From assembly GCA_000002435.2 (NCBI GenBank), contig CM018791.1: a stretch of DNA of 64,000 bases. The stretch is one strand, 5' to 3'. Source of the stretch: Giardia intestinalis (Eukaryota). Shown here piece after piece: positions 1 through 50,555 of this stretch. How positions within the stretch are numbered: position 1 is the first letter of the stretch; every line of letters begins with the position of its first letter. The translations under genes were made by a program, and so were the position numbers. The notes beneath the pieces were generated by a model that was not told the DNA's origin, made no database searches, and saw only the letters and a list, made by a program, of their open reading frames with translations.

Positions 1-286
1 AGACGCCATTACTGTGCGGGATCCTCTGAGCTTCACTATCCATAGGCACGGGTTTGTGTTTCCCTTGCCTCGTAGAAGGTTCTCGGTCACGCTAATGCAG
101 GCAGGAAAGGAGGTTTGTGCACTTGACGGAGTCGAGGGAGTGGCAGGACTCAACACGATCTATCTAGATAGCTGTGCTGAGAGGATGCAGGAGCTCCGAG
201 ACAAACAATACTACCTAAAGCTATGCTCTCAGAAGATGGAGTGCACGGTAACGCCGACTTTCACGGTACTAGATGACACTCATTGA
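1..286 (+). CDS. 3' end (last 95 or more codons) of the arm-duplicated cathepsin-B-like multidomain gene. This is a partial CDS that enters from beyond the left window edge.
   Basis: The frame is open from position 2. Translation DAITVRDPLSFTIHRHGFVF...VLDDTH is identical to the C-terminus of the 783-aa protein at 20291..22642 (-). Confidence 0.7.
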   Translation, partial: DAITVRDPLSFTIHRHGFVFPLPRRRFSVTLMQAGKEVCALDGVEGVAGLNTIYLDSCAERMQELRDKQYYLKLCSQKMECTVTPTFTVLDDTH

Positions 287-3200
287 CACACTCTGATGAA
301 CTAGATGGTAAATCTATCCTAAGCAAAGATGTTGTCGGTTACACTGGACAGACTGTCATAAGCTCCTTCCCTTCATAGCCGACCGACTTTACCGAGGCTC
401 CGAGAAGAACAGGCCGACACCAGTTTATGCCGAGCATGCCACCAACACACCAGCCAGCCAAAACCTCTGACATTAGCGCTCACTCCTTCATCCAGACAAG
501 TATCTAGCAAAGCCTAGAGCCCCGTGCCCTTGTTTCATTCTGCTGTAGGAGCGAAACCCAGAGGCGTCCCAAGTTCTCTGTACTCGACATAGCGAGAGGC
601 CAAAACTAGGATAGGGACCGTCTTACCACTGCAGACCAGTGTAGGCGCACATAGAACCGCAGCAGAGAGGATCCTAGAGGCATCCTTAGCATCTTCGTAC
701 TAAGAAGGCCAGAGCTGGACAGAGCCCCTTTTCTATAATCCAACTGGAGTCCGGCACTAGTATTGGGGGAGTAAGATCCTAGCCCCTAGAGCGCAAAAGG
801 CACAGGGTAATCCGATCCAAAGCAATCTATTCTCGACACGCATTGCAGCCAGCGCCCTCAGCAGCATACGAACAAAAGGCATGCACTTCCGATTATGCAG
901 ATCAACACAATCCATTATACGGCACAGCCACTTTTGCCAGACGAATCCCTGTGCATGGAGGCATCCAACTAAGCTACGGAGACAGCGTGGGCCAGCTGGG
1001 CGCCGAACGTATACAGAAGAGCGACATATTAGTAAGGCACCTTGTTAGAGATTCGAGCCGTACAGCGTTATCACTAGGGGACTGCTGCAGAGAAAACTGT
1101 GAGAGGATGAGGAACAACTGGATTGCCATACAACCGGCTCGAAGCAAAACCACTTTGCATGACAGAACAGCTCTCCGTGTCAATATGAATATTGTCATCG
1201 AGAATGGCTCAGGGAAGAGAAGCACATGGTCAGAGCGGATGGTATAGGAACAAGGTGTTGTTTGCCAGAACTGCGACGTGGGTGCCCAGATTACCAGATT
1301 CTGGAGGTAGATGGCATCGGTGCTTTTAGTCCTGCAAGATCCCATTGTCTGCCTTATGGCAATCTCAGAACACACGCCTAAGTGGAGAGATAGGGCGCCA
1401 CCAAGGAGTAAACAAGAGAAGTTAAAGTGCAAACCTGTCGTTGGGGTCTAGTCTTTCATGCCTACACTACCCCTGACAAGGATGCATCCAACCACTCAGC
1501 TGCTCGAGATTGGAATCAGTACACCGGAAATGTTATGGCAGAATGAGGTATTCAATTGTTAGTGCTAGGTGTGGATTTTATTCTTATGTAGGGCTAAGTA
1601 GTATGATTAAACAGGTGCCCAGAGGCTTCATAGGGGAATGAATAAGGAGCCATCAGCGAGTTCGATGCTTGGGCTATAGTGTAACAGACAGAACGAGGAA
1701 GCGGGACTCTCTCCCGTGGTGCATCATGCTACTCTACTATTTCATGCGAAGAACAGCTTTGTTGCAAGGGCTCTGTATCCCCATGGCCTATCGGCTAGGG
1801 TCCGCCATCACATAATGTCGCTATCTATATCACCGGGCTTTCTATCGCTATGTAAGTCAGAGCTGCCTTCTCTGCATCATCACTGTATCAATGTACTGTG
1901 CCAGCAAAATCCTACTGTCTTACATGACACGATAGAGGTAGGCACGTTGCACATAACGAGTCCATTCACGGACAGGGGGTTTTGAGGCCTTTTATCTTTG
2001 CTTTTTCTGGCATCGTCTATCAGTAAAAGTATCCAGCAGTGCCCGAGCCCAGCAATTCAACTACTGCAACGGTGGGTGCGCAGTGAGTCTAACGCGATCA
2101 TCATATGAAGACTGCACAACGCCAGGGATATTCTGTTGGATGCTCCTATCGGACTTGGTATCAAGAATGGCATGAAGGGGACATGACCATCACATAGGCT
2201 GCGTGGTACCAGTAGTGTTAGCACAGTAGCAGATCTGGATAGGCCTGAAGGTAGACAAAGCCTACAAGCAAGTGACTCGTCCTCTTTGCTGCTACAACAG
2301 GTGCAATAGCACGTGGGTCCAAAGTCTAACCATCTGGGTCACAACTGTTACATATCGAAGGAGTGGACCGCATGGGATGCAGGCACGTGCAATGAGGAAT
2401 GTGAGAAGGCCACCTGGTCCAAACAGTGTCCCTGCTACTACTGTCCTCATTGCGTGGTGCACTCCATACCTAGAGTTCCGGGCTCAGACTGAACCCTGAG
2501 CCAACCCTCGAGAGATCCCATCTCCAGAAGGATGCGTCCTTCACTGTCTATGGCAGCGGGGTCAAAGAACTATGGCCCAAGTGCAGTCAGACTGGTTCGG
2601 TGTGGGGTGCAAGCGCCCACTATTCTCTCTCTGGCCGTCCAGTACCATGTGTTCTGTATCAGACAGGCAGGATCTGACGTTGCACAACACAAGAGCCCTT
2701 CCAGGATGTGCAGGGGGCTGTGTGATCTGTGATGGTGGCGCGTCTCTACCTTCGAAGATGCTGGCAGAGCCAGTGAGCCTAGTGAAGTACACCGGTAGCT
2801 ATAGCGTACCGAATGGATCAAGCCCTTTGCATCCGGTCACGAATTATGCCTTTGTAACAGACCACAGGTGAAGCGGGAAACTTAGCCCTGATGGTGGCAC
2901 GACTGTAATGGCTGGTGAGTCCAGAGTAACCGCCGAATTGGAGCCGTCGATGTGGTTTTCAACAAGGTACAGCAGAGCGTATGAGCCAGCTGAGCACTGA
3001 TGCTGGGCTTCTGAAGAGCTGGGGCTTGGACCTCTCAGATGAAGCAGGGTGAATTGTGTTGTCCTTGCTGAGTAATCTTAGAATCTCAAAGTGTCTGGAT
3101 CCGTACTTGCGTGTCCGTCAAAACCCACAGTGTGCTTTGGGACCGCACTAGTTGATAGGTCGAGATATTTGAGAAGAGCTTTGCTGTCTTCTGCCATCAG

Positions 3201-6200
3201 CATGCGCTGTCTCGTGGACCCATCCTGAGGTTACGCCCTTGAGTGACCAGAGGGGACCAAATGCCAGCAGAGCTGGTCAGCGAGGCAAGCCTGCTACAAG
3301 CAGCTTGTCGATCTAGCGAAAGGCATACCTACGGCGAAGAAGAGCATCTTGCACCAGTTGAGTGTGACTTAGGGCTAGGGGCGAATTGGGGGCTGGATCT
3401 GCGAACGACCGCCATTTTGCATCATCCTTGTGGCCATGACTAGGCCATCCAGGCAACACGCCTCGATACGGGCGCAGAGACTTGGAGAGTAGGATGCCCC
3501 CATAGGTTTGTTGCTTGAGTACTAAAAAATCCGGAACAACAATAACGGCTGCTGTCTCCTCGGGATGCCCATCTGTCCATAGGATCGGTCGTTCTAGCTT
3601 TGATCCACTGGACAAGTAGCCTAGGGGTATTCTGTGCCACAGTCTGACACACAGTGCAGTACAGGTACTCGTAAGCACAGCAATACAGGGGAGGGGAGTA
3701 GCATGAGCAGCCGGCGCGTTATGCTCCTGGTTGTGTACTGTAGCTTCCGCCTGTATAAAGCTACACTGAGCTAGCACGTCCTATTACCTTCCGGCGATGA
3801 CTGTCTCTACCACTGCGTTCGCTACAACAAGAGACGTATACGCCTGACAAATTAAGCAGATATTGCGGCATCCTTCTCTAGTAGCGTATACAGGCCCGCA
3901 CAATGCCATAGTAGATAGAGTAGATGTCATTTCATCTAAGGTGTCTACTTTGATGGAAGACAGCGCTCGGTTATACTAGAGATGCTTCTGTTTAAGCATA
4001 AGGTCTTTACGACTGCTTATCCATCAGCTACAGTGACAGCTGTATACCCAAAAGGATCCTGCAGAGCGCTCCGCCATCTTTCAAGGTGAAACATAGATAT
4101 GCGTACAAAGCTAAAAATAGAAATCTGTGCATCAAATGTCATAACCCTAGTGTGATGACTGGCCTAAATCACAATGCACTCGTCAAGAGCTTGTATACTC
4201 GCTTGCATACTCGCTATTAGTATTAAGCAAGAATACAGGGAGATTTGCCTCTGGTTGCGCTCACCTCATAATGTCTAGTCCTCGGTGACACGCTTCAAGG
4301 AGGAAGAATGTCTGCTAGGTGCTTGGAAGACTATCCGTGCATGGCGGCTCCTAGAGAGCCGGTTCGCATGGAGAATGTAAGGGTAATCAACAGATCAGTG
4401 AGATAAAACTGACGCTACAGAGACTAGCTATTAGCTCGGATTACAGCAGGGACACCTGTAATGCCTCTCTGACCTCTAAACCTGGAGAGGTCGTAGGGTC
4501 TGCAGACAAGCTGGACGCTGCTTTTTGATTTTATGCATTTACGGCAGCGTAATATCTATCAAGAGTTGCTTCGTTTGGAGCCGAGGGTATTCACCTTCCC
4601 TTCGTATACAGATGAGGAGCGATTGTAGAGATCTCCACAGGCTGGTACCGGTCGATATGGTCACTATCCACACTGTCTCAGCTGCGTCCTCCCATGCCAG
4701 ATGGACACCAATAATGCTTCTTGGCCACATGACGTCCTACGATGCATCTCCACCTTCGACACAGGTTGCTACACACACTGCGTAGTTTAGATTGCTCATT
4801 AGCCAAGGTGATCTGATCAGCTCTTGTCCTCTGCCCGTCTATCTCGTGCAACCACTACTGATGGCCTTTCCAGATCAGCGAGTGCTTCCATCGGTCCCGC
4901 AAGGGCATACGTCATACAGGCGACCACTACGGACTAGGGTCCTGTCTACCAAAGAAAGGGTCAACCAGTTTACTACGTAGGCATTCATTGTGCGTCTCAT
5001 ATAGTCCGGCAGGTCTTGTGCTCTCCAACATTCCCTCGCAAGCCTCCGACTAAAGCCATGCATATCGTTATTGACAAGCACCTTAGCTTTATTCGACCAC
5101 TTAGGGCGTTAGATCCTTTGCCCTGTACAGTGGGTATGCTCAGCGTGGGAGGTTCACAATCAGCATTAGCTTTCTTGGCTCATTGTTTGAGTAATACTGT
5201 CATTGCTTCTCGATTCAACTAGCAACTCAACTAATGGTCTCAAATGCAAATGATAACTCACCAGTAGGTAGTCAGCAATAACTGTGGCGCATATCTCCGC
5301 CAAGACACGGCTTCCTGAGCAGGGGCATGAAGTGGGCCTCTGCCATTCTACGGTCCTGCTGCTCCCTCGGATAGCAAGGATCGGAACAGCCTAGGCTAAC
5401 ATTGATCGCTTCCGGGTCTCCATCTGTCCTCGTTGTCTGAGGTAGGCTTGACTTCATAAACTGAAAGGTACTGCACTGTACTCTGGATCTGCGAAATTCA
5501 ATTAGGCAGGGCTGCCATTTCGGTGGCTGCACTGATGTAGCTGCGCACCCCGCAGGACCTCCAGAGAGCATTACAGCTCAATGGAACCCTTTATTTGTCT
5601 AATGCAAGTTGTAGCTGTGACCTTATAGGTGCAGGACTTTCTAGAATAACCGGCCAACTACAGAGTTCGCTCATTCATGTAGAGCCAACGAATAGAGAGT
5701 AACATCAGTTTCGTCGATCGTCTACAACGCACATCAGTCAAATCTCACAGGCGAGTAAGCCCCATCCACCCCGCAGCAATAAGCATCAGTAGGTGTTCTT
5801 CATAACGATAAGTAGACAGGCTTTCAACAATCACAGCACCCGCTTTCCTGTTGAAGACCTTCCAGTCACTAGCCTAGGTCAGCTTCCTACAAGATCCGTG
5901 ATGGAATTGTATCAGAAATGCATGCTTATGGGACTCCCAGCTCAAGATGTATGCTGCTGGATCCCACTTTCCATACCAGTCTGTGTACGGCGGTTCTTTT
6001 GGCCCCTAGTGGAGCCATAGAAGATTGCAGGATATGATGTCCTCAGTAGGGCTTTATCTGACTCCTATAGCTATATGACAAGAAGATCCCGGCCTTCTAT
6101 GCATTATTTAACGCATGCTAAGGTGCACTAGTACAACCCCTACAGTGTGGCATGATTCGTGAGTCAAGAGGTAGGACGCTTACGCTGATTGGCATGTCTC

Positions 6201-7289
6201 CTCAGGGCCAACTACAGCTCGGACCAAAGGTCATGAGCGAATGCTATTCGATTCCCTTATCAACAGATGGGGGTCAACTGCTCTAACACCCACAGGAGGT
6301 CACAAAAGGTACTGGACCAGGCATCCGGCCAACGCCTGGCAAACCAGCGCGGTCTCCTTGGATTCTATTCTTTCCTCACAAGCATCCACATGTAGGAAGC
6401 TCTGAGGGCTTAAAGCCTTACACTAGCAGGCTCAAAGTACTGCAAACCCGGCTGCCTCCACTAGCGATGGTAGCGACAGCACTAGGATGATCCAGAGGGG
6501 AGGATAAGAGTCCTGCTCCATCAGTTTAGGGGGTGACACAGTTTGGGCAAGGTTTTCTCCTTGTCTAGATTTAGGAGTGCTGGCCTACGCTCTCTGAAGC
6601 CCAATTGACACCCTGTCATGCGATAGGATATCTTAAAGTATTCATTACAAAAGATCAGAAATAGCGCCATGCACACCCAACAAACCAGAGCGCCTCGTAG
6701 GCTAATCTATACTGATTCACACTTCTACGGGCCTTAGCGATCACTGTAGCCTTTTCTCGGGATCTCGCACAAGACTGTCCTTGAGTGCGGTTCTCTCACG
6801 ACAGCCGGGAGTCGCAGACATAATCTAAGGAAGTGATGATGCAACAGAGGCGGAAACGAGGTCATCGGCGCATGGGGGTCCGTAGGGGCCCGATCCGCGC
6901 AAGGAAGGCACAGGGAGCTGACTCATCAGGGACGTAGAGACCCCAGGAGAGGAGCCAGCAACGAACCCACGGCACAGCAGGGGCACCTGAGCTGTCTTTT
7001 GATTGGCCGCAGGGTAGAGAGGCGGCGAGCGTGTGAAGAAGTTTCACCACCTATTTTTGGATTTTTTGTTTCCCTGCGTGTTGTGCAGGGGGTATGGAGT
7101 TCAGGCCCAGAGAGCTCGCGTGGGCTGTATGCAGTAGATGTACTTAGTATTTGATGAGCTTCTATGTCCTAAGCAGAGGTATCGTAGGAGACGAATCTCT
7201 TTGGATTAATTAGCACAGTATATAGTAAGTCAGGTCTTTAGTCTTAAGTATTTTATTCTTACTCATGCGATAAGCTGAGAAGGACCTCA

Positions 7290-8945
7290 ATGTTGTTGGT
7301 AGCTTTCTACTTTGTGCTGAGTGCTCTTGCAGCAGAATGTAGCGCGGAGGGAACTGCTAAAGATAACTGTGAAGCCAATCATTGCGAAATGGTTGGTGGC
7401 ACTGAAATCTGTACGCAATGTCAAACAGGAAAGGTTCCAATTGATGGGCAATGTGCAGGTGCTACTGATAGCAACACAAAGTGCAAGAATGCTGATGGCG
7501 TTGCTGATGCAGATCAGACGTGCGGAAAATGTCTTCTAGAAACTTTCATGTACAAAGGAGGATGCTATGTAACAACCAAGGCTCCTGGTAATGTGATGTG
7601 CGGAGATGCAGCTGCTGGTAAGTGCACACAGGTTAAGGCTGGGTACTTCCTGCCGCCGGGCGCTGATAATGCGCACGACTCGGTTGTTTCATGCGGGGAT
7701 ACAACGGGCGTGACGCTTACTGACAATAAGAAGTACACGGGCGTGGCCGGGTGTGGTAAGTGTGAGCAACCCGGCGAAGCACAGAATGGCACTCCCAAGG
7801 CCGCCACATGCACTGAGTGCCAGGCGGATAAGTATCTGAAGACAGAATCAGGGACAACCTCTTGTGTTGACGAAGGGAACTGCAATAACGGATTCTTCCC
7901 CACCACTGATGCACAGAGTAATAACAAGAAGGTATGTGCTCTGTGTAGTGAGGCCGATAAGGGTGGCATAGCCGACTGCAAGAAGTGCTCCCTCAAAGCA
8001 ACGTCTGCAAGAGCAGGTCCAATGGTTACGTGCTCTGAGTGTACTAATAATAATCTGAGCCCCCTGAAGGACGAGTGCATGCTCGGTTGCCCTGCTGGCA
8101 CATATGCCAACAACAAGGTGTGCACCCTCTGCCACGAGTCGTGCGCTGGCTGCCAGACCGACGACAAGGAGACCTCCTGTACGGCCTGCTACCCCGGGTC
8201 TGTACTTGAGCATGATGGTGATCTGACTACTGGCAAATGCATCCAGGAGTGCACGGGAAGGTACGCAGAGAACTGCGAAGCTGGCCAGTGCACGGCCGTC
8301 GTTGGGGGATCCAAGTATTGCAGCAGGTGCAAGACAGGGTTCGTTCCGATAAACGGCATGTGCGTCTCTACAACAGCCCGCGCAGCCACAGAGTGTGTGG
8401 CTGGAGAGGGAGTCTGCACTAGTTGCACGGGCGCATACTTCTTAGAATCTGGCGGATGCTATAAAACCGGGGCATTTCCAGGTAACACGTTGTGCATAGC
8501 CGCAGGGGCCAATGGAAAGTGTGCAAACTGCGCCAATGGACAGAATGCAGATCCTCAAACAGGCGCGTGTCCCCCGTGTCCAGCCAACTGCTCAAAGTGC
8601 AGCGGCGATAGCGATGTTAAGACGTGTACTGAGTGCTATTCTGGATACTATCTTGACACTGGAAAAGAGTGTAAAAAGTGTTCTGAAACAAGTGGTAACA
8701 TCCAAGGCGTACCTAATTGCGTGAGCTGTAAAGCTCCTTCGTCTCCTAATGCGCCGACTCCTGTTACCTGCTATGTTAAAACAGACGCCACTAACAACGG
8801 CGATAACGATAACAACGGCGGAAGCACGAACAAGAGCGGCCTCTCCACTGGGGCCATCGCGGGTATCTCCGTTGCTGTGGTGGTTGTTGTGGGTGGTCTC
8901 GTAGGGTTCCTCTGCTGGTGGTTCATATGTAGGGGGAAGGCGTAG
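7290..8945 (+). CDS. Variant-specific surface protein (VSP), 551 aa
   Basis: Signal peptide MLLVAFYFVLSALAAEC, 29 or more CXXC motifs, two GGCY motifs, C-terminal TM helix GISVAVVVVVGGLVGFLCWWFI and the invariant CRGKA tail. ATG lies at 7290. Confidence 0.92.
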   Translation: MLLVAFYFVLSALAAECSAEGTAKDNCEANHCEMVGGTEICTQCQTGKVPIDGQCAGATDSNTKCKNADGVADADQTCGKCLLETFMYKGGCYVTTKAPGNVMCGDAAAGKCTQVKAGYFLPPGADNAHDSVVSCGDTTGVTLTDNKKYTGVAGCGKCEQPGEAQNGTPKAATCTECQADKYLKTESGTTSCVDEGNCNNGFFPTTDAQSNNKKVCALCSEADKGGIADCKKCSLKATSARAGPMVTCSECTNNNLSPLKDECMLGCPAGTYANNKVCTLCHESCAGCQTDDKETSCTACYPGSVLEHDGDLTTGKCIQECTGRYAENCEAGQCTAVVGGSKYCSRCKTGFVPINGMCVSTTARAATECVAGEGVCTSCTGAYFLESGGCYKTGAFPGNTLCIAAGANGKCANCANGQNADPQTGACPPCPANCSKCSGDSDVKTCTECYSGYYLDTGKECKKCSETSGNIQGVPNCVSCKAPSSPNAPTPVTCYVKTDATNNGDNDNNGGSTNKSGLSTGAIAGISVAVVVVVGGLVGFLCWWFICRGKA

Positions 8946-8959
8946 ATGTGTACTTAGGT

Positions 8960-8966
8960 AGTAAAC
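8960..8966 (+). terminator. Giardia-type polyadenylation signal AGTAAAC, 15 nt after the VSP stop. The mirrored copy for the second VSP lies at 11611..11617 on the - strand.
   Basis: Sequence ...tag gtagtaaacgcg... The motif matches the Giardia consensus AGTRAAY. Confidence 0.6.
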
Positions 8967-9513
8967 GCGTCACTGTATATGATTTATTACACTATGCTGC
9001 TGGGGCTATCTGAGTGTGGCCCAGAGATCGTGCGGGTAATCATCGCTCCTTCCTGGTCAGTTCAGAGACGACTGTTGGTCATGGATAGCATAACAAGAGG
9101 GTCCTCTCCAGTGATATATTCAGAGTCTGGGCATTCCTCGGCCACTCCATGAGGATATGCTCTGTCTGGATATCCATGCCGATCTGCCTTGGATTCAGGC
9201 CTTCTTGTAGACTCTCTGCTCTACCGGTGGGGCCTCTCCTTGGTCTTCCTTCGTGGTGGGTGAGACTCCGGTCGCTGTCTTTTTTAGATGCCCCCGTCTG
9301 TCAGGGGCTGCCATCGGGGCTCTCCGCTGGCTGGGCCCCTCGGTGTCCGGTCAGCTGTGGCCCGGGCAGCGCTTCTACAGTCGTGGTCACGCAGGTCTCA
9401 GTGGGCCAGCTGGTGGGTGAGGCGGTGGGGGCTGGGCGGTGAGGCTGGGTTGCTGGGGCGGTGAGGCCGGAGGGGACTGGTGGGACCGGGTGGGGTGTTG
9501 TATGTGCCTCTGG

Positions 9514-11063
9514 TCCCTCGATAGACTGGGGTGATCGTAGCTGTGGTGACTGGGGGCTGTCTATCTGTGACTCATCCCTCTGTGTGCTCGTGGTCTGTGA
9601 GTGCCTCCACCCAGACAACCCTCAGGAGCCGTGCACGCCGGGACAGAGAGGATGACCAGGGGGTCAGGCAGCCCTGCCATGAGGGTGCATAGCAACCAGC
9701 CTGAGATGCAGGGCCTGCTCGAGCGATGGTAGTGGCAGACGACTCCCTCTGACAGCGACCCTTGATGACTGCACTGGTCTGCTTTCGAGGCTGAGTGACA
9801 GTGTGCACAGATGGACATGAGTGCAGGAGGACCATCCACACACGGACAGACTGTGCCCCCATACGAGAGTACCAGGCAACCACCCGAGCACCCGAGAGGC
9901 AGTGACAGACACGGGCACCAGAGATCCCCGGCCAGACACATTACTGTGCTCATCCACAGGGGCATCAGAGGACCAGATGGAGTCACCCTCACAATCAGGG
10001 TATGATAGGAAGCCAGAGGACTCAAGCAGCACAGCAGAGCAAAGGGGGCCCAAGGGAGGCACACTCCAGCAGGTGAGCAGTGGCAGAGCCTTGATAGCTG
10101 CCAGGGTCTCCATGACACCCAGGCAGGCACCAGACTCCGAAGACTCGCTGGCCTCCACCGATGATCCGAGGGGGCAGCAACCAGAGGAGTGGGGAGACCT
10201 TAGGATACCACAAGAGGCCCGGCTGTCCAGCAGGCTATGAGGCAGACAGGTGACCTCTGAGCACCATAAGGCACAGAGCCGACAATCAGAGTGATGCCCG
10301 ATCACAGAGATGACCACGAGCACCATCCACCGCACTCTGAGGGGCTGTCAATCATTCACTGCCTCTCATAGCAGACCTCCTTGAGGGCAGTGCAGTGGGT
10401 CCCAGCTCATGCAGGAGGGTGTGTGCCTCCCCTGGCATAGGACACCCCGGCTCTCCCCGAGGGGTCATCAGAGCCACGAGAGGGGTCAAGGTCCCGATAG
10501 ATCACACTGGGAACTCCTGAGGGCACAGCAACTGAGATATGAGTGACCCCCAGCGTGCTCCTCTCTGCATGGTAGAGCATCCTGAGACCAAGGAGGCTCA
10601 CCCCTGCCTACGGACGACACACAGCGCTCCACAACGAGGACCCACCAGGAGCAGCACAGCTGACCACGGGGACAGTGCAGTCACCGGTGCCCCACCATGC
10701 CAGTCTTCTGGGCCATCACACTAGAGGCACGAGAGAACCCATCCCATCCACAGGCTCATCCACACCCCTGCTGGCCCGAGGTGAACTACCGTCGAGGCAC
10801 TGGACAGGGCATGCCAGGGGCTCAGCAGACCCGCACAGAGCAACAGGAGAGGCTGCGATGGCCTGCCTCAACCCTCACGCACCAGCCAGACAGAGAGGCA
10901 GTACTGCCTGAGATAAGGGGCCAAGGGAGGCGCTCAGTCAAGGGGACACGACACGATCGTCGGTGCCTCTGTCTCAGAGAGTGCAACGAAGGCTGGGGAT
11001 CAGACACAGCCACCTTAGCAAACAGAACGGGGATCACCCACCACCCCACTGACCCACCAGACC
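9514..11063. other. Unique, strand-asymmetric (T-poor on the + strand) central spacer of the IR1 palindrome
   Basis: There is no mirror identity across the axis here. Mirror identity resumes at 9399..9513 against 11064..11178, and a diverged patch of about 85% identity lies at 9263..9398 against 11179..11314. The + strand is A/C/G-rich, and the ORFs in this region are compositional. Confidence 0.7.
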
Positions 11064-11314
11064 CAGAGGCACATACAACACCCCACCCGGTCCCACCAGT
11101 CCCCTCCGGCCTCACCGCCCCAGCAACCCAGCCTCACCGCCCAGCCCCCACCGCCTCACCCACCAGCTGGTCGCTATAAGACCCAAGTGACCGCGACTGT
11201 AAAGCGCTGACCCAGATCCACAGCTGACCGGACACCGAGGAGCCCAGCCAGCGGAGAGCCCGGTGGCAGCCCCTGACAGACGGGGCATCTAAAAAAGGAC
11301 GGCGACCAGAGCTT

Positions 11315-46583: not shown

Positions 46584-49500
46584 ATGCACCCAGTCGGAAG
46601 CATGGATAAGGTGCACCATCTCAACTCGCGGATCATCACACTGACTGCGACTGTTGCGAGTCTGCAGACCGCAAATGGGCAATCTCAGCAAACAATCGAG
46701 AGACTCGGCCGTGAGCTGCAAGCGGCGCGCACGCAGATATCAGAGCTAAAGCACGAGTTACAAGAGAGTGAGGATTTGATGTACGCTGGGTCACGGACAT
46801 GCGAGAAACTCTCCAACGAAATCGCCCGCGTCCGCGGTGAAAACGCAAAGCTCCAAGATGAGTTAGCAGAAGCAAAACGGCAAGCCTCTGCAGCTCTCCA
46901 CGAGAAGTCCCAGAACGAGAATCTCCTTGCCAGTACTGTAATGCATCTTCATACAAAGCTTCAAGACGCCGAGAAAACCGAGGCTCTCCTTTCAAACTCA
47001 ATAGCATCTCTTCAATCTCAGCCGTCCGCTCAATTACAACAGGCACAGGCCCTTTTTGAAAAATGCTGCGTGCTAGAAGGAGAAAACACTAGACTGAAGG
47101 ATGTAATTCATCGTTATGAAGCTACCGCGCAGGAACTGCAGACCCGGCTGTCCGTGCTGTCCAGCGACCACCTGAAGCTGGAGTTCGAGTACAAGACGGT
47201 CCAGAAACAGAGGGAGCTGCTTGCAGTAAACTTGAGGGAGCTGCAGTCCCGGGCCTTGCACCTGATGACAAAGGCCAGCGTCCTCGAGCTGGAGGCCCAG
47301 AGCAAGCAGCTACAGATGCAGGCGGACTCTGCAACCGAGATCAGCGTTACGCAGGACGGCCGGCGGCCCCTGAGCGCAGCTTCGGAGGGCGTGTTCGGGG
47401 CCCTGAGCCTCCACCCCGACGAGCCGAGCACAGACCTGCCACCGCGCGCAGGGTCGACCATCTCTGCCCCCCGGGGCGCGTCGCAACCCCTGCCAGCGTA
47501 CGAGGAGGAGAACAAGCGCCTGCAGGCAATCGTGGAGGACCTGTCTGCAAAGGTCTCCCAGCTCTCTGAGTGTAGTGCACAGGCGCAGAAGGCGCTGGCA
47601 GAAAGCACGCGGCTCCGGGAGGAGCTGAGGGAGAAGGACCTCCTCATCAGCGAGCTACGCAGCCAGTCCCCCGTTAGCGTGCAACACAACGCTCCAGTGA
47701 TCACAACAATTATTCCCACCGACCCAACGGAAGACCTGCATGTCCTCAACGAGAAGTACGTCATCGAAATCACAAACTTGAAGAGGACTCTGCGAGAAAA
47801 GGAGAACGAGGAGATCCTGCTTCGGCAGAGATCCGATCAGTTGGCGTCCGACCTCTCAGAGCTCCAGTCTAGGATGATGTCTCATCCATCCCAAACATCA
47901 GACCATCTTGTTGAGAAGATTGAGACCCTCAGCGCAGACAATGCAACGTTGCGGGCCGCGCTAGCTAAACTTGAAGAAGAGCAAGTATCTCTCGCCGCTG
48001 ACCGTGTGCGGCTCAAACGCCGTGTCAATGAGCTAGTAGCATATAGCAAGAAGATACGCGCGATCCTTCAGAGTGTGCACGGTAAGCTTATGTATGCCGG
48101 CTCTAAGGGGTACCTGTACCGAGAGGAGATCGATGCATTGGTGATGGAGATATCTGGGGCATTTATGGATAAAGTTAGTCTTCAAGAAGCCACTTTAACT
48201 GCCAGTGAAGCTAACACTCCCACGCTCTCGGGGGTGTCACAGCGACGAGGATCTATTGTGAATGCAAACCAATCTCCTCCAAGAATACCACCTCGTAGTG
48301 AAAAGTCACGCAAGCCATCTGCCTCCGAGCGTGAAGACTGTGGTCCATCAATTACGGACTCATTGGCGGAACCGATGATTCTCCAGCCGGTGGTTCCTAG
48401 ATCCCTTGGTCGGAGCACCGGGCCTCGAAAGAGGGAGTCTGAGGAAGAAAGTCGCGTAACTCCGCGGCCAGGAAACTCCCTTGCAGAGTCTAGTTACAAG
48501 CGCATCACATCATCTGTTGAGAAGCGTGCACACACTTCATATGTGCGGCGACCCAATGAGTTTGAGGAATACTATGGGAAGAGTGGTCCTATAGAGCCTC
48601 TAGGTTCTGCTTCTGGCCGCAGATTTGAAAGCCCTGCCCTACGGTCCGCTTCCTCATTCTCTGCGCTTCCCGATAGAAACTCCTCTAAGGCAAGCAACAC
48701 TACACTAGGCTCAGTCTCTCTCTTCCTGGCCCAGAAGACCGAATCTCCGGTGTGCATCCAGCAGCACCCTCCGAAGCAGAAGACTCCAGAACGAAGCATG
48801 TCTTCAAACGATTTAGCGACTTCCATCGGACGGCGCAAACCACTCATCTCTGTTGAGTCCCCAGACCTTGAGCTTCAGTGCGAAGACCCGAAGAAAGCCG
48901 TTGTGGAGGTTCATGATCCTGTCCACGATGTGCAGTTAGAAGAACCTGATCAGAGAATATCTGAAAATTATCTGCAGGACGTAGACGATGATGGTTATGT
49001 AAGTAGGGTTGATAGCTACACCGGCCCCACAAACGAGAGCATGGAGCTGGAAGACTTTAACGATGAAAACGTTACCGAAGGCTCAACCATTATTCCTGAT
49101 TCAACAAATAGTGGCGAGCTAGACATCTCTTTGGCGCATGCCATATCCGTGGCCTCAAATCCATCCTATGCAGTCCAGAATGCTACTCTTGGCTCCTATT
49201 TCGAAGAGGAACCGCATGTGGATGAGCATATGCAAAATATCACTGCGAATAGGACCCCAGAGTCCCTCGCACACCACCGACAACAGGCACGAGAAGCGGG
49301 AGAGCTAGTTGGGAGCTTAACCCTCAGCAGATTTGAGGGTGGTACCCCTGTCCGCCCTACTAATGCAACCACTCTTGCAGCAGAAACAATGATCGATAAA
49401 GATATTAACCAATCCAGTGTTAGCATGGCACATGTTAGTCTAGAGCAGAGTCTTACCGAGAGCGGCTTGGCACGGCCACAGATCAGTGTTCCCGATGACA

Positions 49501-50384
49501 GCAGCGACACCTTTGACTTTGGAAAGCTAGGAGTACAGGGGCTACTGGTCCCAGAGCAGGCCAAGACGTCTCCGCTGCGGAAACGAGCAGTTGCGAGGCA
49601 GAGCTTAGCTCAGGAAAGCGAGCACGGCGCTTTTACAAATCAAAGTATCTCCCAGCAGCCTGCAATAGCGTCTGGGTCTCTTTGCAGCGCTAATGATATA
49701 AATAGATTGTCTCCTCCCAGGGCATCTCCTAGTTCTTTTGCACAAAGGCCTCCCCCATCTGGAAGAATTGCGAACGGCTCCTCGCATGATCTGCCCAATC
49801 CGGTGTCATATGAAAGGTCTGCACCCATGACTGACGTGGATCTCAACTATTATTCGGATAGCTACTCTGTACAAGGCCAAGGACTCGGGGAGCCTCATCC
49901 CAGTAGTCAGCAGCGCAGTCTGCAACCATCTGGTCGCAAGATCATCCCGCCCGATGACACCTTGAACGAATTTATCGACAGTCCAGAGATCACTATAAAG
50001 CCCTCCACAGCCCCGCGACTCGACGACATGCAGGATCTCGACCCAGACTCGCACTACCTTCTGGAGGAGAAAAGCGTGCATCAAAAGACGCCAACTACAA
50101 GAAAGCTAGAGGCCTGGGAGATGGACTTTGTCGATGAAAAGAAGCCCGCCGGCAGGGTAGAGGGTGGGATGGCCGACTCTACTCTTGATTACTTGGCCAA
50201 CATGAGCGGAGCTGAAATGGATTTCTATGACAGCAAGCAGTTCGAGGGAGGAGCGTCACTGGAGCGGAGCGCGCAGGGAGGAGCCATGGGGGAGGGCCTG
50301 GCCAGTAGAAGCTTGAGCATAGGCGTCGGGAACGCAGTTAATGAGCCACTCTCCACCTTCAACGAGCTTGACATAGACCTGTAG
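46584..50384 (+). CDS. Large coiled-coil protein (1266 aa) with an N-terminal heptad coiled coil of about 560 aa and a Ser/Pro-rich disordered C-terminal half. This is the full-length parent of the IR2 duplicate.
   Basis: Long uninterrupted ORF with a coiled-coil N-terminal half. Confidence 0.7.
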   Translation: MHPVGSMDKVHHLNSRIITLTATVASLQTANGQSQQTIERLGRELQAARTQISELKHELQESEDLMYAGSRTCEKLSNEIARVRGENAKLQDELAEAKRQASAALHEKSQNENLLASTVMHLHTKLQDAEKTEALLSNSIASLQSQPSAQLQQAQALFEKCCVLEGENTRLKDVIHRYEATAQELQTRLSVLSSDHLKLEFEYKTVQKQRELLAVNLRELQSRALHLMTKASVLELEAQSKQLQMQADSATEISVTQDGRRPLSAASEGVFGALSLHPDEPSTDLPPRAGSTISAPRGASQPLPAYEEENKRLQAIVEDLSAKVSQLSECSAQAQKALAESTRLREELREKDLLISELRSQSPVSVQHNAPVITTIIPTDPTEDLHVLNEKYVIEITNLKRTLREKENEEILLRQRSDQLASDLSELQSRMMSHPSQTSDHLVEKIETLSADNATLRAALAKLEEEQVSLAADRVRLKRRVNELVAYSKKIRAILQSVHGKLMYAGSKGYLYREEIDALVMEISGAFMDKVSLQEATLTASEANTPTLSGVSQRRGSIVNANQSPPRIPPRSEKSRKPSASEREDCGPSITDSLAEPMILQPVVPRSLGRSTGPRKRESEEESRVTPRPGNSLAESSYKRITSSVEKRAHTSYVRRPNEFEEYYGKSGPIEPLGSASGRRFESPALRSASSFSALPDRNSSKASNTTLGSVSLFLAQKTESPVCIQQHPPKQKTPERSMSSNDLATSIGRRKPLISVESPDLELQCEDPKKAVVEVHDPVHDVQLEEPDQRISENYLQDVDDDGYVSRVDSYTGPTNESMELEDFNDENVTEGSTIIPDSTNSGELDISLAHAISVASNPSYAVQNATLGSYFEEEPHVDEHMQNITANRTPESLAHHRQQAREAGELVGSLTLSRFEGGTPVRPTNATTLAAETMIDKDINQSSVSMAHVSLEQSLTESGLARPQISVPDDSSDTFDFGKLGVQGLLVPEQAKTSPLRKRAVARQSLAQESEHGAFTNQSISQQPAIASGSLCSANDINRLSPPRASPSSFAQRPPPSGRIANGSSHDLPNPVSYERSAPMTDVDLNYYSDSYSVQGQGLGEPHPSSQQRSLQPSGRKIIPPDDTLNEFIDSPEITIKPSTAPRLDDMQDLDPDSHYLLEEKSVHQKTPTTRKLEAWEMDFVDEKKPAGRVEGGMADSTLDYLANMSGAEMDFYDSKQFEGGASLERSAQGGAMGEGLASRSLSIGVGNAVNEPLSTFNELDIDL

Positions 50385-50555
50385 CAACTGCGTCCGTGCC
50401 AAAATTAATTCTATGGCCGCCGCACCAGACCCCATCGCGTCTCCCCGCTATCTGAGTTCGACTGAACAGGCCATGCACTTGTTCAACGATTTGCAGCATA
50501 GCGTAGACGCACATCATCAGCTCATGCAAGCGGTTGAGCGTAAGAGCCTCAAAGA
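47128..50555. repeat. IR2 right arm
   Basis: Reverse-complement identity to 28089..31516. The outer junction lies inside the 192-aa ankyrin ORF after codon 48. Confidence 0.9.

What the first reader, a model, noticed from the sequence alone, without database searches (positions are those of the whole stretch)
9263..11314. Structured centre of the palindrome: a diverged patch, a re-converged G-rich segment, and a 1.55-kb T-poor unique spacer
Moving inward, identity drops to about 85% with small indels at 9263..9398 versus 11179..11314. It returns to identity at 9399..9513 versus 11064..11178. It then disappears over 9514..11063.

The re-converged segment is a G-run-rich, imperfect direct repeat on the strand reading toward the centre (ggtgggtgaggcggtgggggctgggcggtgagg ctgggttgctggggcggtgaggccggaggggactggtgggaccgggtggggtg). 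This makes it a G-quadruplex candidate on both sides of the spacer.

The spacer + strand is strongly A/C/G-biased and has no palindromic symmetry. It could therefore exist in two orientations (flip-flop) between chromosomes or nuclei.
Basis: seen in the sequence. Interest (0 to 1): 0.6.

Follow-up and report, generated by a model that had tools for sequence, protein, structure and literature searches.

The report
Centre of a Giardia VSP gene palindrome
The region is the gene-free middle of a published pair of identical, tail-to-tail surface-antigen (VSP) genes in the parasite Giardia; the sequence features were described accurately, but the structure is a documented one, not a new one.

Summary
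Arms 1-9263 and 11314-20576 are mirror images with 0 mismatches. Next comes an 84%-identical patch with indels (9264-9405 / 11171-11313), then a perfectly identical G-rich segment (9406-9513 / 11063-11170), then a 1549-nt unique core with only 14.3% T.

The window is Giardia intestinalis WB. The arms carry the identical 551-aa VSP genes GL50803_136003/136004 (vsp-7.1/7.2, chromosome 3) in tail-to-tail orientation. Adam et al. 2010 list this pair with 3' divergence "318 (572)" and spacing 2687. Xu et al. 2020 give 2686 bp and no gene between. Both match the window.

I found homologues of the centre (80-87% nucleotide identity) beside different VSP genes in several metagenome assemblies. It is therefore a conserved, non-coding module: the indels are not codon-sized, and there are no Pfam or Rfam hits.

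A canonical four-tract G4 motif exists on each side, but it is not conserved in the homologues. The G-rich part is a 22-nt minisatellite whose length varies.

The diverged patch consists of two old haplotypes. Their linkage to the two spacer ends is swapped in one homologous locus, which fits past exchange, possibly spacer inversion, in the G-rich segment. Present-day flip-flop could not be tested. Novelty is low.

The parts
1..9263 (+). Left arm of the palindrome. It is cut by the window start, so its true length is unknown.
   Evidence: 0 mismatches against the reverse complement of 11314-20576. ORF 14-286 equals the C-terminus of the cathepsin-like ORF 20291-22642(-), so the arm probably continues beyond the window.
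7290..8945 (+). VSP gene, 551 aa, ending in CRGKA. It is one member of the pair GL50803_136003/136004 (vsp-7.1/7.2).
   Evidence: Pfam PF03302 E=1.3e-75. 100% identical to the NCBI WB protein P0008 on a 1,973,847-nt contig. 551 aa, TTIP, chromosome 3 in the supplement of Adam 2010.
8951..8970 (+). Conserved VSP 3' motif TACTTAGGTAGTAAACGCGT, which contains the AGTAAAC polyadenylation signal. Mirrored at 11607-11626(-).
   Evidence: Two exact matches against 0 expected. The same motif is listed for 136003/136004 in supplementary file 5 of the 2022 preprint. Homology to unpaired VSP genes (L007) stops at about 8972-8975.
8997..9263 (+). Outer part of the conserved inner flank (inverted-repeat part of the centre module), still inside the perfect arm.
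   Evidence: Alignable to L001, L002a, L002b, L003, L005 and L006. In L002 the same flank is present on the side that has no VSP gene, starting at about window 8997-9005.
9264..9405 (+). Diverged patch, left copy ('alpha' haplotype). It includes the near-invariant block at about 9296-9345.
   Evidence: 84.2% identical to the right copy with 7 gap columns. At the 13 sites where both states recur among loci, L002a matches this copy 13/13. The block is 0.96 conserved across loci.
9406..9513 (+). Re-homogenised G-rich segment, left copy. It holds the 22-nt imperfect tandem repeat (9409-9484) and a canonical G4 motif (9472-9495).
   Evidence: 108 nt 100% complementary to 11063-11170. TRF. G4 scan. 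Length and copy number vary among homologues.
9514..11062 (+). Unique asymmetric core (spacer), non-coding and T-poor on the + strand. Ends are named s1 (9514 side) and s2 (11062 side). An extra G4 motif lies at 11037-11064(-).
   Evidence: Composition. No self-symmetry. 80-87% identical homologues L001-L006. Non-coding: only 6 of 26 indels are multiples of 3 and there is no codon periodicity; no Pfam hit in six frames; no Rfam hit.
11063..11170 (-). G-rich segment, right copy (G-rich on the - strand). G4 motif at 11081-11104(-).
11171..11313 (-). Diverged patch, right copy ('beta' haplotype).
   Evidence: It shares the beta states, including two indels, with L002b and L006. It also carries about 8 private differences.
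11314..20576 (-). Right arm of the palindrome, carrying the second VSP copy at 11632-13287(-).

Best explanation
The region is the 2686-nt gene-free centre of the Giardia intestinalis WB tail-to-tail inverted pair of identical VSP genes GL50803_136003/136004 (vsp-7.1/7.2, chromosome 3). About a dozen such pairs exist in this genome, all with gene-free centres of 2.5-2.8 kb.

Shown: the centre is a conserved non-coding module. Two imperfect inverted flanks of about 0.5 kb start about 50 nt after each VSP stop codon and end in a variable 22-nt G-rich minisatellite. They enclose a 1.55-kb strand-asymmetric core. The module recurs at 80-87% identity beside different VSP genes in other Giardia genomes. 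At one locus it sits between a VSP gene and a non-VSP gene.

Inferred: the long outer arms are identical for one of two reasons. Either they are kept so by arm-to-arm gene conversion, as in other large palindromes, or they were copied outward recently from the older inner inverted repeat. The inner flanks are an older mosaic of two haplotypes (alpha and beta). The perfect identity of the G-rich segment records a recent short conversion tract or a crossover between the arms at the spacer boundary. A crossover there would invert the core alone. The T-poor bias is an inherited property of the core, also seen in its homologues, and is not a coding signal. The unique core probably matters mainly as a loop that stops the structure from being a perfect, unstable palindrome.
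For: Identity of the locus:
- Pfam VSP hit.
- 100% match to the WB protein P0008.
- Adam 2010 Table 5 lists pair 7 with 3' divergence 318 (572) and spacing 2687. The window gives 9263-8945=318, 9513-8945=568 and 2686.
- Xu 2020 Table 2 lists chromosome 3, 136003/136004, -> <-, 551 aa, 2686 bp, nothing between. All 12 -> <- pairs are 2526-2813 bp apart.
- The preprint's S4 table says the intergenic regions of this cluster are 'very similar'.

Module conservation:
- blastn of L001-L006 gives 79.5-87.1% identity across the core and flanks, beside VSPs of 516 and 625 aa.
- Unpaired VSP genes (L007) lose homology about 30 nt after the stop codon.
- In L002 the module has its own 77-88% inverted repeats and abuts a Mec-17 acetyltransferase gene on one side.

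Non-coding:
-.

Mosaic and exchange:
- Alpha and beta states, including indels, are shared between loci, and their linkage to s1/s2 is swapped in L002.
- A different stretch (77 nt) is the perfectly identical one in L002, so the identity pattern is locus-specific and not a fixed design.

Composition:
- The L002 core has T .151.
Against: - I could not retrieve the other WB tail-to-tail centres. Within-genome similarity therefore rests on the literature, and gene conversion among arms is inferred, not measured.
- The core (0.88-0.96 per-column identity over 9546-10600) is better conserved than the VSP-proximal flank (0.54-0.74). This could mean selection on the core instead of a passive loop role.
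- The metagenome loci come from unknown Giardia lineages, so the neutral divergence level is not calibrated.
- Arm identity in a polished long-read assembly could be slightly overstated.
Confidence: 0.8

Rival explanations
1. Recombination switch. The identical G-rich, G4-prone minisatellites at the two spacer boundaries are a hot spot for crossovers between the arms. The 1.55-kb core would then flip and exist in both orientations among the four genome copies or the two nuclei.
For: - There are 108 nt of perfect identity exactly at the spacer boundary, inside otherwise 84%-identical flanks.
- G4 motifs cluster here, with 3 of the 4 in 64 kb.
- Alpha/beta linkage to s1/s2 is swapped between the window and L002. 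A single crossover in this segment explains that most simply.
- Inversions are the commonest intra-isolate structural variant called from nanopore reads in WB (162 of 392), and several dozen of the structural variants are enriched for VSP genes (PMC7048089).
Against: - No read-level data could be examined, and this locus is not named in the held supplements of that study.
- The strict G4 motif is missing from most homologous flanks. In L002 the two G-rich segments are only about 77% alike and differ in length.
- Ectopic conversion among about 12 paralogous loci could also shuffle the haplotypes. L001, L003 and L005 are mosaics.
Confidence: 0.2
2. Regulatory RNA source. Read-through or antisense transcription across the centre of convergent identical VSP genes yields a hairpin or double-stranded RNA. 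This RNA would feed the Dicer/Argonaute pathway proposed to silence VSP genes, and the conserved core and the invariant block at about 9296-9345 would serve that role.
For: - The geometry is right: identical convergent genes sit 2.7 kb apart.
- The core is more conserved than the adjacent flank, and a block of about 50 nt is near-invariant across loci.
- From my own knowledge, Prucca et al. 2008 proposed RNAi control of VSP expression.
Against: - A canonical polyadenylation signal follows each stop codon.
- No Rfam family matches.
- No expression or small-RNA data were examined.
- Only about 40 of roughly 135 intact VSP genes are in pairs, so pairing cannot be the general silencing mechanism.
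Confidence: 0.08
3. Relic mobile element. The centre would be a non-autonomous element of about 2.6 kb with terminal inverted repeats of about 0.5 kb that inserted downstream of VSP genes, and the palindromes grew outward from it.
For: - It is a multi-copy module with inverted ends.
- At L002 it lies between a VSP gene and an unrelated Mec-17 gene, with the module ending about 80 nt from that gene's stop codon.
- The inner inverted repeat is older (84%, shared haplotypes) than the outer arms (100%).
Against: - No transposase or reverse-transcriptase signal appears in any frame.
- No target-site duplication could be defined.
- Only one locus has an unrelated flank, and that could equally be a pair that lost one VSP gene.
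- The published retrotransposon remnants lie between head-to-head pairs, not tail-to-tail pairs.
Confidence: 0.1
4. Assembly artefact, such as chimeric palindromic long reads or collapsed repeats.
For: Perfect identity over 9263 nt. Duplicated VSP pairs were once questioned as artefacts of the older assembly.
Against: - The same spacing and both divergence points appear in the 2007 Sanger-based assembly (Adam 2010) and in the PacBio assembly (Xu 2020).
- A read chimera would not contain a 1.5-kb unique core and an 84% patch.
- Homologous centres occur in independent metagenome assemblies.
Confidence: 0.02

Closest known systems
Inverted identical VSP gene pairs of Giardia lamblia WB (Adam et al. 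2010, BMC Genomics 11:424; Xu et al. 2020, Sci Data 7:38; first example vsp1267)
   Same: It is one of them. The gene size (551 aa), chromosome 3, tail-to-tail orientation, 2686-nt spacing and both 3' divergence points (318 and about 572) all match. There is no gene between the copies.
   Different: Nothing differs. The papers give only distances and say the intergenic regions are 'very similar'. They do not describe the 22-nt G-rich minisatellite, the two patch haplotypes or the strand bias of the core.
Large palindromes with unique spacers on primate sex chromosomes (e.g. human Y P1-P8, X palindromes; PMC8327919)
   Same: Long, nearly identical arms surround a non-palindromic spacer. The arms carry multi-copy genes. 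Arm identity is attributed to arm-to-arm gene conversion, and spacers can invert through arm recombination.
   Different: The scale is about 10 kb instead of 10 kb to megabases. The organism is a tetraploid, binucleate protist. Here the same centre sequence is shared by many palindromes that carry different genes. Conversion and inversion are inferred, not measured.
Palindrome formation seeded by a short inverted repeat (Tetrahymena rDNA palindrome with a short non-palindromic centre; short-inverted-repeat-initiated palindromes in yeast and mammalian cells). Cited from my own knowledge.
   Same: An older, imperfect inner inverted repeat around a unique centre, with perfectly identical arms outside it, is the footprint such a mechanism leaves.
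   Different: This palindrome is interstitial in a chromosome, not a free or terminal molecule. The outer junction lies outside the window, so the mechanism cannot be checked.
G-rich minisatellites and G-quadruplex motifs as recombination-prone sequences
   Same: It is a tandem 22-nt G-rich unit with variable copy number between loci. Four-tract G3+ motifs occur in the window copy.
   Different: The canonical motif is not conserved among homologues, and no structural or recombination assay exists for it.

Membership tests
Giardia tail-to-tail inverted identical VSP pair | Two VSP ORFs with identical sequence in convergent orientation | tested here: met
   7290-8945(+) and 11632-13287(-) lie inside arms with 0 mismatches. 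Pfam VSP E=1.3e-75 and a CRGKA C-terminus.
Giardia tail-to-tail inverted identical VSP pair | 2-4 kb of non-coding DNA between the ORFs (2.5-2.8 kb in the -> <- class) | tested here: met
   2686 nt. No Pfam domain in six frames. Indel and substitution patterns are non-coding.
Giardia tail-to-tail inverted identical VSP pair | Flanks identical up to an abrupt divergence point a few hundred nt from the ORF | tested here: met
   Divergence begins 318 nt after the stop codon, and again at 568 nt. Table 5 of Adam 2010 gives 318 (572).
Giardia tail-to-tail inverted identical VSP pair | Correspondence to a catalogued pair | tested here: met
   GL50803_136003/136004, 551 aa, chromosome 3, 2686 bp.
Palindrome maintained by arm-to-arm gene conversion | Arms much more alike than homologous copies elsewhere | tested here: inconclusive
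   The arms are 100% identical, against 72-87% for homologous loci. Those loci are paralogues or other lineages, so a recent duplication cannot be separated from conversion.
Palindrome maintained by arm-to-arm gene conversion | Spacer found in both orientations within a population | not testable with these tools
   This needs sequencing reads or PCR. Only the evolutionary swap of haplotype-to-spacer-end linkage was seen.
G-quadruplex-forming sequence | Four or more G3+ tracts with loops of 1-7 nt | tested here: met
   9472-9495(+), 11081-11104(-) and 11037-11064(-).
G-quadruplex-forming sequence | Motif conserved in homologous copies, as expected for a functional G4 | tested here: not met
   Under the loop <=7 rule the motif is absent from L002b, L001, L003, L005 and L006 and present only in L002a.
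G-quadruplex-forming sequence | Folding shown in vitro or in vivo | not testable with these tools
   No biophysical or G4-seq data were available.
TIR-type mobile element | Terminal inverted repeats with a sharp shared outer boundary and target-site duplication | tested here: inconclusive
   Inverted flanks of about 0.5 kb are present. The outer boundary could be estimated from one locus only (L002), and no target-site duplication was identified.
TIR-type mobile element | Transposase coding capacity, or a known autonomous partner | tested here: not met
   No Pfam hit in any frame of 9401-11170. Homology searches with core ORFs returned only Giardia metagenome ORFs with no domains.
Hairpin-RNA / endo-siRNA generating inverted repeat | Transcription through both arms and small RNAs mapping to them | not testable with these tools
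   No RNA data were examined. A polyadenylation signal follows each stop codon.

The most novel reading that the evidence does not exclude
The centre of about 2.6 kb is a discrete, selectively maintained non-coding element of Giardia: inverted flanks of about 0.5 kb ending in a G-rich minisatellite, around an asymmetric 1.55-kb core. It would nucleate VSP palindromes by fold-back copying outward from its own old inverted repeat. It would flip by crossover in the minisatellite. It might also drive antisense or hairpin transcription of the adjoining VSP genes, linking genome architecture to antigenic variation.
Probability: 0.1. Interest if true: 0.6.

Novelty: already known. Interest (0 to 1): 0.22.

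Why it matters
VSP genes underlie antigenic variation in a major human intestinal parasite, and the paired identical genes have been called an interesting but cryptic feature (Adam et al. 2010). This finding adds no new kind of object.

The follow-up does show three things. The centre of the tail-to-tail pairs is a conserved non-coding module that is also present in Giardia from independent metagenomes. Its inner inverted repeat is older than the perfect outer arms. The patch haplotypes provide short-range markers, so spacer inversion could be tested with ordinary PCR or reads of about 2 kb, without reads that span arms of 10 kb or more. That is a modest, practical gain for anyone studying how VSP pairs arise and are homogenised.

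Tried and rejected
- rDNA palindrome, organelle or virus inverted repeat: rejected. There are no rRNA, tRNA or Rfam hits, and the window carries dense eukaryotic genes with ankyrin, DEAD-box, STI1 and VSP domains.
- Spacer as a VSP pseudogene: tblastn of the VSP against the core gave nothing better than E=1.3.
- Spacer as a relic of any protein domain, including reverse transcriptase: no Pfam hit in six frames at E<=0.1.
- Spacer as a protein-coding gene: amino-acid identity of the longest ORF to its homologues (46-68%) is roughly what unconstrained drift at 80-87% DNA identity gives. Only 6 of 26 indels are multiples of 3. Substitutions by codon position are 35/54/40.
- Known ncRNA: none, even at E<=1.
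- Hidden palindromic symmetry of the core, or decayed arm homology beyond 9513: not significant. The multi-locus alignments hint at about 25 nt of weak similarity.
- Repeats of the core elsewhere in the window: none.
- Retrieving the other WB tail-to-tail loci, or this locus from other assemblies, by exact protein look-up: this failed for the NCBI WB proteins, so the within-genome comparison could not be done.
- Looking for this locus among published nanopore structural variants: no occurrence in the held supplements.
- A long ENA contig with a related VSP (L007): it proved to be an unpaired VSP and served only as a negative control for the 3' flank.
Full report
**Observation**

The window contains a large inverted repeat. 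Positions 1-9263 are the exact reverse complement of 11314-20576, with 0 mismatches. The repeat finder had already flagged this pair. The left arm is cut by the window start.

Moving inward, a global alignment shows identity falling at 9264. Positions 9264-9405 against 11171-11313 have 123 of 146 columns identical (84.2%) and 7 gap columns.

Exact identity returns for 108 nt, 9406-9513 against 11063-11170.

The 1549 nt from 9514 to 11062 have no partner. The core does not align to its own reverse complement better than shuffled sequence does (score 19 against 16.2 +/- 2.4). It has no other copy in the window.

Its + strand composition is A .249, C .311, G .297, T .143. No 1549-nt window outside the centre has an A or T fraction below .165.

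At 100-nt resolution the AT skew changes sign near 9600. It stays positive to about 11400, so the T-poor domain comprises most of the core plus the right inner arm.

**The G-rich segment**

Tandem Repeats Finder reports a 22-nt period with 3.4 copies and 71-76% matches at 9409-9484, mirrored at 11096-11167.

A regular-expression scan finds canonical G3+N1-7 four-tract motifs at 9472-9495(+), 11081-11104(-) and 11037-11064(-). The third lies just inside the right edge of the core. Only one other such motif exists on either strand of the 64 kb. G4Hunter-type scores of 1.5 or more cover about 9407-9499.

The G4 candidate is therefore real at the motif level.

**What the object is**

The window has no rRNA, tRNA or Rfam match. 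It carries dense intron-less eukaryotic ORFs with ankyrin, DEAD-box helicase, STI1/TPR, PHD and papain-like domains.

The only long ORF in each arm is a 551-aa protein. It matches Pfam PF03302, the Giardia variant-specific surface protein family, at E=1.3e-75 and ends in CRGKA. The two copies, 7290-8945(+) and 11632-13287(-), are convergent and 2686 nt apart.

The protein is 100% identical to a VSP of Giardia intestinalis ATCC 50803/WB encoded on a 1,973,847-nt NCBI contig (P0008).

Three publications describe this pair:
- Adam et al. 2010 (PMC2996952) list 14 inverted pairs of identical vsp genes in WB. In their Table 5, tail-to-tail pair 7 has 3' divergence "318 (572)" and spacing 2687. In the window, 9263-8945 = 318 and 9513-8945 = 568.
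- Their supplement names the pair vsp-7.1/7.2 = GL50803_136003/136004, 551 aa, chromosome 3.
- Xu et al. 2020 (PMC7000408) list chromosome 3, 136003/136004, -> <-, 551 aa, 2686 bp, no gene between. All twelve -> <- pairs are 2526-2813 bp apart with nothing between them.
- A 2022 preprint (10.1101/2022.03.07.483299) gives 'None' between the genes and 2,686 nt. It notes that the intergenic regions of this cluster of pairs are 'very similar'.

The finding is therefore the centre of a documented structure.

**The centre is a conserved module**

The longest ORF of the core (9664-10335, - strand) found seven proteins, all on ENA metagenome contigs, at 46-75% amino-acid identity. A second core ORF found one more.

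The contigs align to the window at the DNA level:

| Locus | Aligned to window | Identity |
|---|---|---|
| L002 | 11770-9479 | 84.0% |
| L004 | 11049-9477 | 87.1% |
| L001 | 10579-9479 | 84.6% |
| L003 | 10612-8823 | 80.4% |
| L005 | 10158-8993 | 79.5% |
| L006 | 9849-11936 | 83.0% |

The adjoining VSP genes are different ones, of 516 and 625 aa.

As a control, two unpaired VSP genes on a 67-kb contig (L007) lose similarity to the window at 8972-8975. That is about 30 nt after the stop codon, just past the conserved TACTTAGGTAGTAAACGCGT polyadenylation motif. The 3' flank from about 8997 inward is therefore not a general VSP flank. It belongs to the centre.

In L002 the module has its own inverted repeats (534-963 against 2560-2951), which are 77-88% alike apart from one 77-nt perfect stretch. 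One side of the module adjoins the 3' end of a VSP gene. The other side adjoins the 3' end of a Mec-17-type acetyltransferase gene (PF05301, E=3.2e-30), not a second VSP.

**The core is non-coding**

Several results agree:
- Against L002 the core is 86% identical over 1626 columns, with 26 indels of which only 6 are multiples of three.
- Substitutions by codon position are 35/54/40, and transitions to transversions are 102:27.
- Amino-acid identities of 46-68% at 80-87% DNA identity are roughly what unconstrained drift gives.
- No Pfam family matches any of the six frames of 9401-11170 at E<=0.1.
- The VSP protein does not align to the core.
- No Rfam family matches 8900-11700 even at E<=1.

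The T-poor bias is shared by the L002 core (T .151), so it is a property of the family. Long ORFs on both strands follow mechanically from it, because all three stop codons contain T, and contain A on the complementary strand.

**Conservation profile**

In a seven-sequence alignment, per-column identity to the window varies by region:

| Region | Identity to window |
|---|---|
| 8946-9195 | 0.54-0.74 |
| 9196-9395 | 0.80-0.96 |
| 9296-9345 (peak) | 0.96 |
| 9396-9495 (G-rich segment) | 0.31-0.52 |
| 9546-10595 (core) | mostly 0.82-0.96 |
| 10596-11045 | 0.75-0.82 |

The low values in the G-rich segment arise because it differs in length. L002b and L001 lack about 68 nt, and L002a, L003, L005 and L006 lack about 22 nt.

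The strict G4 motif (loops <=7) is present only in the window copies and L002a. It is absent from L002b, L001, L003, L005 and L006, although all remain 41-52% G.

This looks like a G-rich minisatellite, not a conserved G4 element.

**The diverged patch is a mosaic of two old haplotypes**

Of the 25 columns where the window's two arms differ, 13 are polymorphic in at least two sequences for both states, including two indels.

- L002a matches the window's left arm ('alpha') at all 13.
- L002b and L006 mostly match the right arm ('beta').
- L001, L003 and L005 are mosaics.

The junction sequences define the two core ends unambiguously:
- s1: TCCCTCGATAGACTGGGG...
- s2: GTCTGGTGGGTCAGTGGGG...

In the window, alpha adjoins s1 and beta adjoins s2, and L006 also has beta next to s2. 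In L002, alpha adjoins s2 and beta adjoins s1.

The L002 arms are only about 77% alike and differ in length between the patch and the core. A short-read mis-join there is therefore unlikely.

The simplest single event that converts one arrangement into the other is a crossover between the arms inside the G-rich segment, which inverts the core alone. Ectopic conversion among the many paralogous loci is an alternative that I cannot exclude.

The stretch that is perfectly identical differs between loci. It is the G-rich segment in the window and a 77-nt stretch inside the patch in L002. The pattern 'diverged patch, then re-converged segment' is therefore a locus-specific record of exchange, not a designed architecture. 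Most other pairs in Adam's Table 5 are identical right up to 486-559 nt after the stop codon.

**Mechanism**

Shown:
- The identity of the locus.
- The module's conservation and its non-coding nature.
- An inner inverted repeat at 84% identity, whose two forms are shared with other loci, against 100% identity in the outer arms.
- The swapped haplotype linkage in L002.

Inferred:
- The outer arms are kept identical by arm-to-arm gene conversion, or were copied outward recently from the older inner repeat.
- The identical G-rich segment marks a recent conversion tract or crossover.
- The unique core acts chiefly as a loop that prevents a perfect palindrome.

I give this reading 0.8.

The rivals and their probabilities are:
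- A genuine flip-flop switch at the minisatellite: 0.2. This is compatible with the main reading.
- A hairpin or antisense RNA source for VSP silencing: 0.08.
- A relic element with terminal inverted repeats: 0.1.
- An assembly artefact: 0.02.

The artefact reading is excluded by agreement between the Sanger-era and PacBio assemblies and by the independent metagenome homologues.

**Limits**

- The exact-protein look-up does not hold the NCBI WB chromosomes. I could not align the other WB centres or examine the outer end of the palindrome.
- No reads, RNA data or biophysical data were available.
- The Giardia lineages behind the metagenome contigs are unknown, so the higher conservation of the core cannot be judged against a neutral rate.

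**Verdict**

The object is already known, and interest is low (0.22). One useful by-product is that the alpha/beta patch variants and the s1/s2 edges give short-range markers for a direct test of spacer inversion.

Noticed in passing
window 28089-31516 and 47128-50555: A second perfect inverted repeat (3428 nt, 100%) with a 15.6-kb gene-bearing spacer. The arms carry most of two long coiled-coil ORFs (28260-31523 on the - strand, 46584-50384 on the + strand), which point away from each other.
   Followed up: no
window 14-286(+) and 20291-22642(-): The first ORF of the window is identical to the C-terminus of the papain-like (Peptidase_C1 + Kre9_KNH) ORF that straddles the end of the right arm. 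The palindrome therefore probably extends beyond the window start and may duplicate that gene. The long ORF has no ATG upstream of its catalytic-cysteine region, so it may be truncated or a pseudogene.
   Followed up: partly
window ~300-7290 (mirrored 13287-20280): About 7 kb upstream of each VSP copy has no ORF longer than 154 aa, in an otherwise gene-dense genome. It is nevertheless 72-81% similar to DNA upstream of other VSP genes (L001 3797-6457, L006 3531-4423). The 2022 preprint reports repeated upstream regions with transposon relics.
   Followed up: partly
window ~9296-9345 (mirrored ~11232-11281): A block of about 50 nt inside the 'diverged patch' (…CCCCGTCTGTCAGGGGCTGCCATCGGGCTCTCCGCTGGCTGGGCC…) is nearly invariant in all homologous inner flanks (0.96). 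It follows a conserved T6 run. Its function is unknown.
   Followed up: partly
L002 1-6072: Here the centre module lies between the 3' end of a VSP gene and the 3' end of a Mec-17-type tubulin acetyltransferase gene. It has its own 77-88% inverted repeats. Either the module exists without a second VSP, or one VSP copy was lost.
   Followed up: partly
L008 (= L006), L009, L010: An identical 625-aa VSP (P0121) occurs in three independent metagenome assemblies. L008 and L009 are identical downstream and lead to the s2 end. L010 is identical for about 250 nt after the stop codon and then diverges sharply, with an 86-nt insertion. It may be the other arm of a pair, or a strain difference.
   Followed up: partly
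L006 versus L007 (both from ERZ28528424): The contig names give coverage of 51.9 for the VSP-plus-centre contig and 22.5 for a 67-kb single-copy contig of the same assembly. The ratio of about 2.3 is what a collapsed two-copy arm would give.
   Followed up: no
window 11037-11064(-): A third canonical G4 motif sits just inside the right edge of the 'unique' core, with no counterpart at the left edge. On that side the G-rich character continues past the arm boundary.
   Followed up: no
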